64,000 bases of DNA, taken from positions 160,001-224,000 of the IMG/VR virus record IMGVR_UViG_3300013426_000014, one strand, 5' to 3'. Source of the stretch: a virus. Taxonomy: Duplodnaviria; Caudoviricetes. Every line of letters starts with the position of its first letter. The stretch's first letter is position 1. A model generated the notes under the pieces. The model worked only from the letters and a program-made list of their open reading frames with translations, made no database searches and had not been told where the DNA came from. This document shows, piece by piece, positions 46,860-48,764 of this stretch. The translations under genes and the position numbers were made by a program.

Positions 46860-47224
46860 GCCTTCGTAGTTTAACGGTAGAACAATGGTCTTTGAGAATG
46901 TTGAATACAGTTTGTATATGATGTGTATGAATGCTAGCATTCATCCAGATCTTTATATAGAGTGTATTTGACACAATTGGAGCTTGCAAATCGAAAGGTT
47001 TGCAATGGACATGATGATAACGTTGAACCCGTAACAGGTCACGCTGACGGTAACGACGTCGGAACGGTAGATTTGCCGGCCGCGAGAGAGTAGATAATCA
47101 TGCACCTGTAGCGATTGATTTCGTATGGTGAATACGTACTCCAGACCACAACGATTTTTGTCGGCATGGTAACATGCGTGGTAAGCAAAACCATTAAGTG
47201 TGGGTTCGAATCCTACCGAAGGTG
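46860..47224 (+). tRNA. Opal-decoding tRNA-Trp(TCA), split by a group I intron (exons 46860-46892 and 47186-47224)
   Basis: Spliced sequence GCCTTCG TA GTTT AACGGTA GAAC A ATGGT CT TCA AA ACCAT TAAGT GTGGG TTCGAAT CCTAC CGAAGGT G: canonical cloverleaf, tRNA-Trp-like body, G73. Confidence 0.9.
46893..47185 (+). mobile_element. Group I self-splicing intron, 293 nt, no ORF
   Basis: Follows U, ends in G. IGS TTGGAG (46977-46982); P2 GAAA hairpin (46984-47005); P3 CATGAT/ATCATG; P4 ACGTTG/CGACGT; P6 CGG/CCG; P7 G(A)GAGTA/TACTCC; P8 CACC/GGTG; 3' ACCAC/GTGGT helix with GCATG-GTAA-CATGC. Confidence 0.9.
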
Positions 47225-47258
47225 CGAATATTAACAGACAGAATTAGATTTATTGATT

Positions 47259-48053
47259 ATGACAGAAACAAAGATGAATACGCTGCTGGCCAGGACAGAT
47301 CATGCTGCGGCGAGTGTGAACAAGATGTTTGCCGATTACGGCGCTTTCTTCAAGACGAAGCAGGGCGCATTCAGAGGCGAGAAGAAGACTTTCGAGCCAA
47401 GGGCCGGATATTTTGAGGATCCGTCTAAAATTGGCAATACTAAGGTTGTCACCACGGTCGGAGAGAAACTCGATTGGTTCAATGATCGTCTTAAGAAATA
47501 TCTTAAGGACGTGTTCACAGTTGAGGAGACGAATTCCGCTGGCGCGAACAGAGTGGAGCTTGTCGTCAACGGCAGGTCATTCGGAAAGTTTACCGCGCTT
47601 GAGCTTATGCGTCTCAAGTCATTGCTGACCAACTCCTCGCTTTCCACCGTATATGAAAACATTCCTGTCCGATCAGATGCGGAGGTGTGGAGTCCTGTGA
47701 CTGATCCTGAGTACGCCGGACGTGAGGTGTTCCAGACGGAGCTCGTCAAGGGCGTTACCCGTACAACAGAGAATGAGGAGGTGATCCTTAAGGATCCGAA
47801 TCTCGATCCTGCTCATCTTCCTTCAAACTATTCGGCGAAAGTGACGGTTAAACGCAAGACCGTCGAGACTGGTGATTACACGCAACAGAAGTTTACCGGC
47901 GAGTGGACACAGCGTCAGCGCGCCGAACTGCTCAAGCGTAAGTCAGATCTTCTCGCCGCCGTTATTGCCGCGCTTAAGGAGGTCAATGACACCGATGTGC
48001 AGCTACCGGAGTTCGACGTTGATTCCATTGTTGACTATATTACCGAAGGGTAA
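47259..48053 (+). CDS. Conserved hypothetical protein (DUF7873-like, from recollection)
   Basis: KMNTLLA...FRGEKKTFEP...LELMRLK...GDYTQQKFTGEW...ALKEVN resembles a widespread phage/bacterial hypothetical family. Confidence 0.7.
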   Translation: MTETKMNTLLARTDHAAASVNKMFADYGAFFKTKQGAFRGEKKTFEPRAGYFEDPSKIGNTKVVTTVGEKLDWFNDRLKKYLKDVFTVEETNSAGANRVELVVNGRSFGKFTALELMRLKSLLTNSSLSTVYENIPVRSDAEVWSPVTDPEYAGREVFQTELVKGVTRTTENEEVILKDPNLDPAHLPSNYSAKVTVKRKTVETGDYTQQKFTGEWTQRQRAELLKRKSDLLAAVIAALKEVNDTDVQLPEFDVDSIVDYITEG

Positions 48054-48170
48054 TTGACAATAAGAGACAGACGCCTTCTCTGATTGGCGTTCAGTAGCAC
48101 TGATCAAGGATCTGAGCGTGACGCGAAACACCTGGATTGATTTTTTCTTTGACATAATAATTTTTATATA

Positions 48171-48490
48171 TTGACAAAAGCTTCAGCTTAAGCATCAACG
48201 TTAACAAGATCCTGGACGATCAAGTTTTAGTGTTGTGTCAATAGCTTTGGCTTTACAGTCAATGTCTTGATGTCAGCGTTTTGATCTATACACTTCAAGA
48301 CCGCGGTTTCGCGGGTTCGATTCCCGCATCCCCCTCTACTTTTATTGAATATACGGGGGATTGCTGAAGTGGTTAACAGCGCGGTTTCAGATTTTCACAT
48401 GAATGAATATCGATAAAGCTTCAGTATAAATACGTTGAACACATCAGACAAAATTTGGGGCGGTTTTTTGAGGATATTTGGATTATCGCC
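48171..48490 (+). ncRNA. Structured RNA containing a circularly permuted tRNA-like domain (48300-48385)
   Basis: T arm and 3' acceptor strand (48311-48334) precede the 5' acceptor strand and D arm (48355-48380); enclosed by long-range helices. Confidence 0.75.
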
Positions 48491-48492
48491 CT

Positions 48493-48566
48493 GGCCGGAT
48501 AGCTCAGTTTGGCAGAGCGCAAGCCTTGTAAGCATGAAGTCTATAGTTCGAATCTATATCCGGCCG
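48493..48566 (+). tRNA. tRNA-Thr(TGT)
   Basis: CAAGC-CT TGT AA-GCATG; GGCCGGA/TCCGGCC acceptor stem. Confidence 0.8.
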
Positions 48567-48575
48567 CGAGAATAT

Positions 48576-48683
48576 AACGGGTTGGCGGAATGGTATACGC
48601 GCGCCGCGTGAATTATTTTGCGGTGTATTGTTTCCGGAAAATTCCAGGGTTCCGGATTGATGGTTCGAGTCCATCACCCGTTG
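48576..48683 (+). ncRNA. Atypical tRNA-like RNA (no canonical anticodon loop, very long variable arm)
   Basis: AACGGGT/ACCCGTT acceptor, Leu-like D arm, 7-bp stem with 10-nt loop TGAATTATTT, canonical T arm. Confidence 0.65.
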
Positions 48684-48690
48684 CAAGTTT

Positions 48691-48764
48691 GGTCCCTTAA
48701 CTCAGTTGGTCAGAGTAACTGACTCATAATCAGTAAGTCGGGGGTTCAAGGCCCTCAGGGACCA
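48691..48764 (+). tRNA. tRNA(CAT), probably Ile2 (lysidine)
   Basis: ACTGA-CT CAT AA-TCAGT; body resembles Ile2 rather than Met. Confidence 0.8.

What the first reader, a model, noticed from the sequence alone, without database searches (positions are those of the whole stretch)
47259..48490. Circularly permuted tRNA-mimic RNA (YrlA-like topology) paired with a conserved unknown protein instead of Ro60
Seen, in order: ACCGC (48300), T arm GCGGG-TTCGATT-CCCGC, ATCCCCC, ~20-nt linker, GGGGGAT (48355), D arm CTG-AAGTGGTTAA-CAG, GCGGT (48381-48385). The tRNA 3' half thus precedes the 5' half, with the acceptor stem closed by a loop. The anticodon stem opens into long helices: TGTCT(T)GATGT 48263-48273 pairs with ACATCAGACA 48441-48450, and CAGCGT with ACGTTG. 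An upstream domain is closed by TTGACA/TGTCAA, and AAAGCTTCAG occurs twice (48177, 48415) in unpaired bulges. Established: bacterial YrlA Y RNAs have this permuted topology but lie beside Ro60/Rsr genes; none is in this window. Inference: a new RNP in which the upstream 265-codon protein binds the repeated motif, possibly a decoy for anticodon nucleases. The 7 nt before ACCGC read CTTCAAG, a UCA-anticodon-like loop containing the same CTTCAA as the spliced suppressor junction, but YTTCAR recurs in this RNA, so this may be coincidence.
Basis: partly seen in the sequence, partly recalled or inferred. Interest (0 to 1): 0.8.

Follow-up and report, generated by a model that had tools for sequence, protein, structure and literature searches.

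The report
Megaphage tRNA-mimic RNA with docking partner
This giant-phage stretch encodes a conserved ~320-base folded RNA built around a back-to-front tRNA look-alike; it matches no catalogued RNA family, usually follows one unknown protein gene, and base-pairs with a second tRNA-shaped RNA encoded nearby.

Summary
Window 48300-48385 is a complete cloverleaf in permuted order: 3' half, 20-nt linker, 5' half, with no anticodon loop. It is the core of a ~320-nt non-coding RNA (48171-48492). I found more than 30 distinct relatives in Lak-like megaphage contigs. All four stems covary (99.4% of cells paired; 19 of 20 pairs show compensatory changes). The outer helices and the closing helix TTGACN/N'GTCAA also covary.

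The RNA reaches no Rfam 15 threshold (YrlA 16 bits, tmRNA 23 bits). It has no Ro60 gene, no Ro60-binding motif and no conserved tag frame. The CTTCAAG "anticodon loop" is not conserved.

New here: a hairpin loop in the 5' domain (CCUGGA, 48211-48216) is exactly complementary to a loop (UCCAGG, 48643-48648) of the odd tRNA-shaped gene two genes downstream. This holds in 32 of 32 relatives that have the hairpin, across five compensating sequence states.

The DUF7873 gene lies directly upstream in most lineages but about 360 kb away in Lak phages. It is predicted to form a homodimer. Protein-RNA binding and function remain untested.

The scan has noted this DUF7873/tRNA-mimic RNA family before on other DNA. 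I found no published description.

The parts
47259..48053 (+). Gene for a 264-aa protein of Pfam family DUF7873 (unknown function), predicted to be a symmetric homodimer
   Evidence: Pfam PF25283 scores 118.5 bits against a cut-off of 27. There are 502 homologues and 248 clusters at 50% identity. No fold match: Foldseek PDB/BFVD E>0.006, VIA Z<=6.7. Homodimer model: ipSAE 0.74 against a best control of 0.00.
48171..48492 (+). Whole non-coding RNA gene (~320 nt), from the 5' strand of the closing helix to the base before the next tRNA
   Evidence: Conserved at 70-93% nucleotide identity downstream of DUF7873 in relatives. More than 30 distinct members were aligned. No Rfam family reaches threshold.
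48171..48241 (+). 5' domain closed by helix TTGACA (48171-48176) / TGTCAA (48236-48241)
   Evidence: The helix covaries across the family: TTGACT/AGTCAA 11, TTGACC/GGTCAA 11, TTGACA/TGTCAA 3, TCGACT/AGTCGA 3.
48177..48197 (+). First run of six-base repeats (AAAGCT TCAGCT TAAGCA ...). Further copies lie at 48244-48258 and 48415-48427.
   Evidence: Sequence identity at lag 6 is 0.40 against about 0.22 at other lags. AGC-AGC neighbours spaced 6 or 12 nt: 59 observed against a mean of 0.4 in shuffles, over 20 members.
48203..48226 (+). Docking hairpin: AAC-AA-GATC [CUGGAC] GATC-AA-GUU. The hexamer CCUGGA is at 48211-48216.
   Evidence: The stem covaries: AAATC/GATTT, CTAAAT/ATTTAG, GACGA/TCGTC. 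The hexamer is exactly complementary to 48643-48648 in the window and to the corresponding loop in 32 of 32 relatives with this hairpin, across five compensating states.
48263..48279 (+). 5' strands of the two long-range helices, pairing with 48432-48450
   Evidence: RNAalifold on 9 sequences gives 13 pairs, most with compensatory changes, for example AU:5 GC:4 and GC:6 UA:2 AU:1.
48300..48385 (+). Circularly permuted tRNA-like domain. In order: anticodon-stem 3' strand 48300-48304; variable loop 48305-48310; T arm 48311-48327; acceptor 3' strand 48328-48334; U73 at 48335; CUA 48336-48338; linker 48339-48354; acceptor 5' strand 48355-48361; U8 G9; D arm 48364-48379; anticodon-stem 5' strand 48381-48385.
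   Evidence: Model R1 scores 89.7 bits. Covariation was measured. U8, A14, G18G19, the T-loop UUCGAWU and C48 are conserved. ARAGORN finds nothing here.
48335..48354 (+). Discriminator U, then C-U-A, then a non-conserved linker that closes the acceptor stem
   Evidence: U-C-N-A is invariant in the family, and is UCCA in several members. The linker is 16-129 nt long and not conserved. 19 of the window's 32 tRNA genes carry the same C-N-A trailer.
48390..48411 (+). Hairpin after the 5' half (GATTTTCA / TGAATATC)
   Evidence: Relatives have different paired sequences here: ACTAAATA/TATTTAGT, TATTAT/ATAATA, GTTAT/ATAAC. Indels in L014 break any reading frame.
48432..48450 (+). 3' strands of the long-range helices (ACGTTG, AACAC bulge, ACATCAGACA)
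   Evidence: see 48263-48279.
48457..48492 (+). 3' hairpin (GGGGCG...CGCCCT) that ends exactly where the next tRNA begins
   Evidence: The stem covaries: GGACCAA/TTGGTCT, GGGAAGT/ACTTCC, GAGATG/CATCTC. In most members ARAGORN places a tRNA start directly after it; in four loci ARAGORN called none and I set the end by hand.
48493..48567 (+). tRNA-Thr(UGU) abutting the RNA. Its 5' processing would define the RNA's 3' end.
   Evidence: ARAGORN and Rfam tRNA, 61.8 bits. Homologues at this position carry many different anticodons.
48576..48683 (+). Companion tRNA-shaped RNA. It has a 7-bp acceptor stem AACGGGU/ACCCGUU, a D arm, an extra arm, a T arm, and a hairpin UCCGGAA [AAUUCCAGGG] UUCCGGA. The loop hexamer UCCAGG is at 48643-48648.
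   Evidence: The fold shows the acceptor stem, the T arm and the exposed 10-nt loop. The hexamer is the exact complement of 48211-48216. ARAGORN does not call it a tRNA.

Best explanation
The region holds a protein gene (DUF7873) followed by the gene for a ~320-nt structured non-coding RNA. The RNA belongs to a conserved family that is absent from Rfam 15 and was not found in the papers searched here.

Shown:
- The RNA contains a circularly permuted tRNA-like domain with acceptor, T, D and anticodon stems and the usual tertiary-contact nucleotides, but no anticodon loop. The open anticodon stem continues into covarying long-range helices.
- A 5' domain carries six-base NAG-NNN repeats and a hairpin.
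- That hairpin's loop is exactly complementary to a loop of a separate tRNA-shaped RNA encoded two genes downstream. The two loops have changed together at least four times.

Inferred:
- The two RNAs dock through a 5-6-bp loop-loop kiss. This gives a particle with two tRNA-shaped heads, one built in and one recruited.
- The built-in head has a 7-bp acceptor stem, U73, a C-N-A trailer and a dispensable linker. It is probably cut by RNase P at G48355 and matured at its 3' end like the neighbouring tRNAs. That would give a two-piece RNA held together by its helices, as reported for M. smegmatis YrlA.
- DUF7873, predicted to be a symmetric dimer, is the likely protein partner, perhaps binding the repeat track or the two heads.

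Guessed:
- The particle engages or diverts factors that recognise the acceptor/elbow end of tRNAs during infection, in a manner like Y RNAs but without Ro60.
For: Reality and family:
- The element is conserved downstream of DUF7873 in all protein-first loci that have downstream sequence: L014-L027 and 11 of 11 genome-contig loci.
- It was also found independently with a DNA pattern. Of 130 pattern hits, 23 have 7/7 acceptor pairing and most of the rest 0-5 pairs (eight have 5 or 6).

Structure:
- 98.8% of cells pair and 15 of 20 pairs are compensatory on an unfitted alignment; 99.4% and 19 of 20 on 32 sequences (fitted). None of 500 shuffles reach this, and slid controls give about 43%.
- The long-range helices and the closing helix covary.

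Docking:
- The reverse complement of each RNA's own loop hexamer occurs in the anticodon-position loop of a tRNA-like gene downstream in 30 of 30 members, plus L164 and L160.
- There are five matched states: CCUAGA/UCUAGG, CCGAGA/UCUCGG, CCUGGA/UCCAGG, CCUGGU/ACCAGG and UCUAGU/ACUAGA.
- Hexamers belonging to other states are rare (8 of 120 cells).
- The DUF7873 tree needs at least 4-5 switches.
- A distant relative, L176 (27% protein identity; R1 62.8 bits), has a complementary pair with the partner directly abutting the RNA.

Processing (inference):
- U-C-N-A is invariant and the linker is 16-129 nt and not conserved.
- 19 of the window's 32 tRNA genes have C-N-A trailers.
- M. smegmatis YrlA, which has a 7-bp acceptor stem, is cut by RNase P and receives CCA in vivo (PMC4201824).

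Protein:
- Synteny.
- The RNA and DUF7873 are both kept in Lak genomes although unlinked there.
- Homodimer test: the model supports binding but does not show it. The score is 0.74 against 0.00 for the best of 3 controls. That mark was reached by 20 of 30 proteins solved as pairs of one chain and 1 of 23 solved as single chains. The runs agree in at least 95% of contacts, and partner pLDDT is at least 87.
Against: - There is no transcript, end-mapping, binding or processing datum for any member.
- In Lak-A2 and Lak-C1 the RNA lies about 360 kb from the DUF7873 gene, and Lak-B4 has no DUF7873 match beside its RNA. Adjacency is therefore not required, and synteny elsewhere could be inherited gene order.
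- One sublineage (L166-L175, about 53% protein identity) has a different 5'-domain hairpin, and I found no complementary partner there.
- Part of the docking hexamer (the first C) lies in the hairpin stem in the window, so the kiss may be only 5 bp.
- The loop-loop complementarity could act only within a long precursor transcript.
- DUF7873 has no recognisable RNA-binding fold.
- The family members are related, so counts of sequences overstate the number of independent events.
Confidence: 0.6

Rival explanations
1. The RNA is real and docks the companion tRNA-like RNA, but it works without DUF7873. On this view the gene adjacency is only conserved gene order in one phage lineage. The RNA would be, for example, a regulator or sponge of tRNA-binding factors, or an RNA-only assembly built through its self-complementary AAGCUU repeats.
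For: In Lak-A2 and Lak-C1 the RNA is about 360 kb from DUF7873 and has its own AT-rich upstream region. DUF7873 shows no known RNA-binding fold. AAAGCUUU is palindromic, so the repeats could pair with each other.
Against: The adjacency persists from 97% down to 27% protein identity, inside tRNA arrays whose other content turns over. Lak genomes keep both genes.
Confidence: 0.2
2. The element acts in cis during processing. A tRNA-like structure in the 3' region of the DUF7873 transcript would recruit RNase P to separate the mRNA from the downstream tRNAs, or to order tRNA-array maturation. It would have no role as a free RNA.
For: It sits between a protein gene and tRNAs. Its 3' hairpin ends exactly at the next tRNA. 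Its trailer is like those of the tRNA genes.
Against: An ordinary tRNA would be enough for punctuation. About 300 nt of covarying extra structure, the six-base repeats and a co-evolving trans partner are not needed for that job. The RNA persists without the gene beside it in Lak.
Confidence: 0.1
3. It is a YrlA-type Y RNA that uses the host's Ro60/Rsr protein. Bacteroidota often encode Ro60.
For: It has the permuted T arm / closed acceptor / D arm topology. Weak Rfam YrlA hits exist: 16.1 bits here and 25.7 bits for a different element in L004. The Bacteroides thetaiotaomicron control genome has a TROVE protein.
Against: The score is far below the gathering score of 69. The GNCGAAN0-1G motif occurs in only 1 of 31 members. 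No Ro60 lies within 4 kb or anywhere in the 269-kb record. The RNA is three times the size of Y RNAs.
Confidence: 0.05
4. It is a permuted or split tRNA gene, or a permuted intron-exon arrangement, that matures into a decoding tRNA such as a UCA opal reader. Alternatively it is a two-piece tmRNA.
For: The cloverleaf body is perfect. CTTCAAG precedes the 3' half in the window. The phage reads TGA as Trp according to earlier notes. Rfam gives weak hits to tmRNA (23 bits) and tmRNA_permuted (16.5 bits).
Against: No 7-nt anticodon loop can be assembled in relatives, and the junction sequences are not conserved. There is no conserved G at a possible 3' splice site. There is no G3:U70 pair. The frame after the D arm is broken by indels in L014, which is 93% identical. 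The relative L025 and Lak-A2 encode a standard tmRNA.
Confidence: 0.03

Closest known systems
YrlA Y RNAs with Ro60/Rsr (Rfam RF02553; Chen et al. 2014, PMC4201824)
   Same: Both have a circularly permuted tRNA-like module (T arm, acceptor-like stem closed by a loop, D arm, variable region) with the RNA ends emerging from the anticodon-stem side. Both are encoded next to a partner protein gene and are found in phages. The M. smegmatis member, which has a 7-bp acceptor stem, is cut by RNase P and receives CCA.
   Different: This RNA has no Ro60 gene and no GNCGAA Ro60-binding motif, and it is about 320 nt rather than 80-130 nt. It has an extra 5' domain with six-base repeats. The neighbouring protein is a different one (DUF7873). 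It has a co-evolving loop-loop partner RNA. It scores 16 bits against a gathering score of 69.
Two-piece (permuted) tmRNA (Rfam RF04321, RF01851)
   Same: The gene order is T arm, acceptor 3' strand, intervening segment, acceptor 5' strand. The expected product is a two-piece RNA held together by helices. The T arm is nearly identical to the tmRNA consensus.
   Different: There is no G3:U70 alanine identity pair, no conserved tag reading frame and no pseudoknot set. A true D stem is present. Related phages carry a normal tmRNA as well.
T-box leader RNAs (established knowledge)
   Same: Both are structured RNAs that capture a tRNA-shaped molecule by base pairing with its anticodon-position loop. 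The paired triplet is followed by a purine.
   Different: This RNA has no terminator/antiterminator switch and is not a leader of an aminoacyl-tRNA-related gene. The pairing is 5-6 bp to a dedicated, often non-canonical tRNA-like RNA. The resemblance is functional only.
Permuted tRNA genes of Cyanidioschyzon merolae, some green algae and some archaea (established knowledge; reviewed in PMC4238349)
   Same: The 3' half lies upstream of the 5' half, with a short linker joining the acceptor strands.
   Different: Those genes mature into decoding tRNAs through a bulge-helix-bulge junction at the anticodon loop. Here there is no anticodon loop and no such junction, and the host is bacterial.
DUF7873-linked tRNA-mimic RNAs noted earlier in this scan (unpublished AI notes e1-2703945, e1-3266146, e1-5633710, e1-5345856)
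   Same: The DUF7873 gene lies upstream. There is a permuted, anticodon-less tRNA-like head, a track of six-base repeats and loop-to-loop docking of a head. No Ro60 is present, and the RNA often sits inside phage tRNA clusters.
   Different: Most of those are described as single RNAs with two built-in heads. Here the second head is a separate gene in ordinary tRNA order, separated from the main RNA by a real tRNA gene.

Membership tests
YrlA (RF02553) | Reaches the Rfam gathering score (69 bits) | tested here: not met
   16.1 bits over model positions 23-86 at window 48301-48385. It was not listed at E<=10 in the local scan.
YrlA (RF02553) | Permuted tRNA-like module (T arm, loop-closed acceptor stem, D arm) | tested here: met
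YrlA (RF02553) | GNCGAAN0-1G motif near the 5' end (Ro60 recognition; PMC4201824) | tested here: not met
   Present in 1 of 31 family members, and there only inside the closing helix. Absent from the window RNA.
YrlA (RF02553) | Encoded within about 4 kb of a Ro60/TROVE gene on the same strand | tested here: not met
   No PF05731 match at E<=1 in the 269-kb record, although the controls matched. The record is estimated to be 87% complete.
Two-piece tmRNA | G3:U70 pair and A73 in the acceptor stem (alanine identity) | tested here: not met
   G3-C70 and U73 in the window. Position 3:70 is a Watson-Crick pair in nearly all members, with a rare U-G.
Two-piece tmRNA | Conserved tag reading frame ending in a stop codon | tested here: not met
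   The frame GCG GTT ... TAA in the window is broken by indels in L014 and is absent in other members.
Two-piece tmRNA | Reaches the Rfam gathering score | tested here: not met
   tmRNA 23 bits and tmRNA_permuted 16.5 bits, against 47. ARAGORN finds none.
Decoding tRNA (permuted gene) | A 7-nt anticodon loop with U33 that can be assembled from the two halves | tested here: not met
   The sequences flanking the anticodon stem are not conserved and give no consistent loop.
Pfam DUF7873 (PF25283), for the protein | Full-length match above the curated cut-off | tested here: met
   118.5 bits against 27, residues 4-262 on profile positions 2-242 of 244.
DUF7873-linked tRNA-mimic RNA family (scan-internal, unpublished) | DUF7873 gene immediately upstream on the same strand | tested here: met
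   The gene ends at 48053 and the RNA starts at 48171. The same arrangement holds in 14 of 17 RNA-first loci and in all protein-first loci.
DUF7873-linked tRNA-mimic RNA family (scan-internal, unpublished) | Anticodon-less permuted tRNA-like head on a track of six-base repeats | tested here: met
   A member at 27% protein identity (L176) scores 62.8 bits with the core model.
DUF7873-linked tRNA-mimic RNA family (scan-internal, unpublished) | A second tRNA-like head docked by loop-loop pairing | tested here: met
   Met in trans: 48211-48216 pairs with 48643-48648, and the pairing covaries in 32 of 32 relatives with the hairpin. Pairing is inferred from sequence and has not been measured.

The most novel reading that the evidence does not exclude
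This is a two-part, Ro60-independent ribonucleoprotein of a kind not yet described. A scaffold RNA carries one built-in, RNase P-processed tRNA mimic. It captures a second, separately encoded tRNA mimic through a co-evolving kissing loop. A DUF7873 dimer reads the NAG-NNN repeat track or the two heads. Giant phages, and bacteria with related systems, would use this two-headed particle to engage the tRNA-handling machinery or tRNA-directed defences.
Probability: 0.35. Interest if true: 0.85.

Novelty: new variant of a known kind. Interest (0 to 1): 0.75.

Why it matters
tRNA mimicry by non-coding RNAs is known from tmRNA, Y RNAs and viral tRNA-like ends, and each case revealed a new way of using the tRNA machinery. 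This family is conserved and structurally well defined, is absent from Rfam 15, and has its own candidate protein partner. It sits in the tRNA arrays of the largest known gut phages.

The co-evolving loop-loop contact gives a specific hypothesis that can be tested by mutation: two tRNA-shaped RNAs assembled into one particle. It also explains the odd "tRNA without a usable anticodon" next door. If the protein partnership holds, DUF7873 would gain its first functional context, and Ro60/Y RNA would no longer be the only RNP of this design.

Tried and rejected
1. Permuted group I intron-exon arrangement that would give a circular, then mature, tRNA. A neighbouring intron claim prompted this. Rejected: there is no conserved G before a possible 3' exon, no consistent anticodon loop, and no Rfam group I hit at E<=10 in 47900-48700.

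2. Two-piece tmRNA with the tag AVSDFHMNEYR. Rejected: the frame is not conserved.

3. Regulation of the amber suppressor through CUA pairing. Rejected as a general role. The window's partner loop reads CCA in a non-canonical body. Lak-A2 has two canonical tRNA(CUA) genes elsewhere whose loops lack UUCUAGG. The Lak partner is not called a tRNA by ARAGORN.

4. The L004 neighbour (495 aa, weak VWA hit) as a divergent Ro60. No PDB sequence match and no relative in the own genome. Left open.

5. Fold searches for DUF7873 against PDB (Foldseek), the wide VIA search and BFVD gave nothing above background.

6. A single-protein scan of viral contigs found no relatives. The DNA pattern scan succeeded instead.

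7. A bulge in the alternative 5' hairpin of sublineage L166-L175 was tested as a docking site. No consistent complement was found downstream.

8. MAFFT misaligned the members with long linkers. I therefore used segment-wise alignment and a covariance model.

Full report
**Context.** The window is bases 160001-224000 of a 269-kb IMG/VR virus record. It carries 33 ARAGORN tRNA calls. Its DUF7873 gene is about 65% identical at the DNA level to Prevotella Lak megaphages. Earlier notes on this genome report that TGA is read as Trp; I did not retest that.

**The observation.** Read in tRNA numbering, 48300-48385 gives:
- anticodon-stem 3' strand ACCGC;
- a 6-nt variable loop ending in C48;
- T arm GCGGG-UUCGAUU-CCCGC;
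- acceptor 3' strand AUCCCCC;
- U73, then CUA;
- a 16-nt linker;
- acceptor 5' strand GGGGGAU;
- U8 G9;
- D arm CUG-AAGUGGUUAA-CAG;
- N26;
- anticodon-stem 5' strand GCGGU.

ARAGORN finds nothing here. Rfam 15 gives only sub-threshold hits: tmRNA 23 bits, tmRNA_permuted 16.5 bits and YrlA 16.1 bits. These come mostly from the T arm. The YrlA model scores tandem tRNAs in the same genome higher (27.6 bits), so these hits are noise.

**Relatives.** Contigs fetched through homologues of the upstream protein all carry the element downstream. The homologues are 97% to 65% identical to the window's protein.

A DNA pattern that ignores the protein (T loop, N10, TCNA, N17-40, TGNTGNAGTGG) gave 130 hits in viral and metagenome collections. 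Of these, 23 have 7/7 pairing between the putative acceptor strands. Most of the rest, which are tandem tRNAs, have 0-5 pairs and eight have 5 or 6.

A covariance model of the core (R1) finds exactly one strong hit in the window's genome (89.7 bits; next best 31.6). It also finds exactly one in each of Lak-A2, Lak-B4 and Lak-C1 (74-87 bits). It hits 11 of 11 further DUF7873 loci from genome assemblies. It also hits a locus whose protein is only 27% identical (L176, 62.8 bits).

**Structure.**
- On an unfitted 13-sequence alignment, 98.8% of cells pair and 15 of 20 pairs show compensatory changes. None of 500 shuffles reach this, and slid controls give 40-47%.
- On 32 sequences aligned to the model, the figures are 99.4% and 19 of 20. 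That alignment leans towards the structure.
- The acceptor stem alone takes more than a dozen different sequences.
- The outer helices (48263-48279 with 48432-48450) covary.
- The helix closing the 5' domain covaries: TTGACT/AGTCAA, TTGACC/GGTCAA, TTGACA/TGTCAA, TCGACT/AGTCGA.
- The hairpin at 48390-48411 and the 3' hairpin also covary.
- In most members ARAGORN places a tRNA start directly after the 3' hairpin; in four loci it called none and I set the end by hand. RNase P processing of that tRNA would set the RNA's 3' end.
Identity at lag 6 is 0.40 against about 0.22 elsewhere. AGC-AGC spacings of 6 or 12 number 59, against 0.4 in shuffles.

**What it is not.**
- It is not a decoding tRNA. 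The sequence next to the anticodon stem is not conserved and no 7-nt loop can be assembled, so CTTCAAG is a coincidence.
- It is not a tmRNA. There is no G3:U70 pair. The frame after the D arm is broken in the 93%-identical L014. Relatives carry a normal tmRNA.
- It is not a YrlA member. It falls below threshold. The Ro60-binding motif occurs in 1 of 31 members. There is no TROVE or RtcB gene in the record. It is three times the size of Y RNAs.

**A new contact.** The 5' domain holds a conserved hairpin whose loop carries CCUAGA in most lineages. The variants are CCGAGA, CCUGGA (window), CCUGGU and UCUAGU.

In 30 of 30 members, the exact reverse complement of the member's own hexamer occurs once in the 110-560 nt after the RNA. 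It always lies in a hairpin loop 10-25 nt upstream of a T arm, which is the anticodon position of a tRNA-like gene. L164 and Lak-B4 add two more cases. Hexamers belonging to other states are rare (8 of 120 cells). On a DUF7873 tree the five states need at least 4-5 changes, each matched in the partner.

In the window the pair is 48211-48216 with 48643-48648. The predicted duplex is -11.7 kcal/mol if the flanking bases join in.

The window's partner (48576-48683) has a 7-bp acceptor stem, D and T arms and two extra arms. The loop sits exposed on a 7-bp stem.

Some relatives' partners are called tRNA(CUA) or tRNA(CUC) by ARAGORN, but many are not called at all. Lak-A2 has two canonical tRNA(CUA) genes elsewhere, while its partner is not recognised as a tRNA. 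I therefore read the partner as a dedicated second head and not as the suppressor tRNA.

In L176 the partner abuts the RNA directly and its loop is complementary over 5 nt. The window's lineage appears to have a real tRNA gene inserted between the body and the second head.

One sublineage (L166-L175) has a different hairpin, and I found no partner for it.

**Processing (inference).**
- U73-C-N-A follows the acceptor strand in every member, and is UCCA in several.
- The linker ranges from 16 to 129 nt without conservation.
- In the window's own tRNA genes, 28 of 32 have C74 and 19 of 32 have C-N-A. The head therefore carries a normal tRNA trailer.
- M. smegmatis YrlA, which has a 7-bp acceptor stem, is cut by RNase P and receives CCA in vivo (PMC4201824).
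- I therefore expect cleavage at G48355 and a two-piece RNA. The phage record has no CCA-adding enzyme, so host enzymes would act.

**The protein.** DUF7873 matches Pfam at 118.5 bits. It has 248 clusters at 50% identity. Its model is confident (pLDDT 83), but I found no informative fold match.

A two-copy test passed. The model supports binding but does not show it. The score was 0.74 against 0.00 for the best of 3 controls. That mark was reached by 20 of 30 proteins solved as pairs of one chain and 1 of 23 solved as single chains. The runs agree in at least 95% of contacts, and pLDDT is at least 87.

Linkage to the RNA is strong but not absolute. In Lak-A2 and Lak-C1 the RNA lies about 360 kb from the DUF7873 gene, with an AT-rich upstream region of its own. 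Lak-B4 likewise has no DUF7873 match beside its RNA. The RNA is therefore its own gene, and both genes are kept in these genomes. Binding is a hypothesis.

**Verdict.** This is a real, conserved and structurally well-supported RNA family. It works in the manner of Y RNAs but fails every YrlA membership test except topology. It has a candidate protein partner and a newly seen co-evolving RNA partner.

The scan has met the DUF7873/tRNA-mimic family before on other DNA. Those notes are unverified, but they agree with what I tested here. I found no description in Rfam 15 or in the papers searched. The function is unknown. My best guess, held with low confidence, is that the particle engages tRNA-end-recognising factors during infection.

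Noticed in passing
window 48493-48567 and homologous positions in L014-L148: The tRNA that abuts the RNA's 3' hairpin changes its anticodon between close relatives. It is UGU in the window and CUC in L014, which is 93% identical in nucleotides. Elsewhere it is UUU, CAU, CCA, AUU, GAU, CUG or CUU, on an otherwise homologous tRNA body.
   Followed up: partly
L022:4822-4910 and L004:3168-3224: A second class of permuted tRNA-like element occurs in phage tRNA arrays. In L022 the acceptor GGGGCAU/GUGCUCC has G3.U70 and A73 (alanine-like), so it may be a two-piece tmRNA-like RNA. The core model scores about 33 bits, and Rfam YrlA gives 25.7 bits for L004.
   Followed up: no
An Rfam scan at E<=1 finds no group I match, only a 17-bit tRNA fragment. 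ARAGORN calls 47154-47225 tRNA-Cys(GCA).
   Followed up: partly
L026:3985-4113 and L027:4016-4071: The linker between the two acceptor strands tolerates insertions of about 129 nt and 60 nt that contain their own hairpins.
   Followed up: no
window, 32 of the 33 ARAGORN tRNA calls: 28 of 32 tRNA genes have C at position 74, and 19 of 32 have C-N-A after the discriminator (CGA 7, CAA 6, CCA 5, CUA 1). The record has no CCA-adding enzyme gene. This points to an unusual shared 3'-end rule in this phage's tRNA array.
   Followed up: partly
L166-L175 (Bacteroidales MAG-binned contigs): This sublineage of the RNA family has a longer, different hairpin in place of the docking hairpin. I found no complementary downstream partner.
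   Followed up: partly
Lak-A2 MK250019.1, 135-146 kb (loci L185-L186): In Lak-A2 the RNA (135577-135674, minus strand), its partner loop (135149), a tmRNA (142605-142997) and two canonical tRNA(CUA) genes (144866 and 145771) all cluster within about 11 kb. The DUF7873 gene lies at about 496 kb.
   Followed up: partly
L004:3985-5472: A 495-aa protein with a weak VWA hit lies next to a YrlA-like permuted element. It could be a very divergent Ro60-like protein. It has no PDB sequence match.
   Followed up: partly
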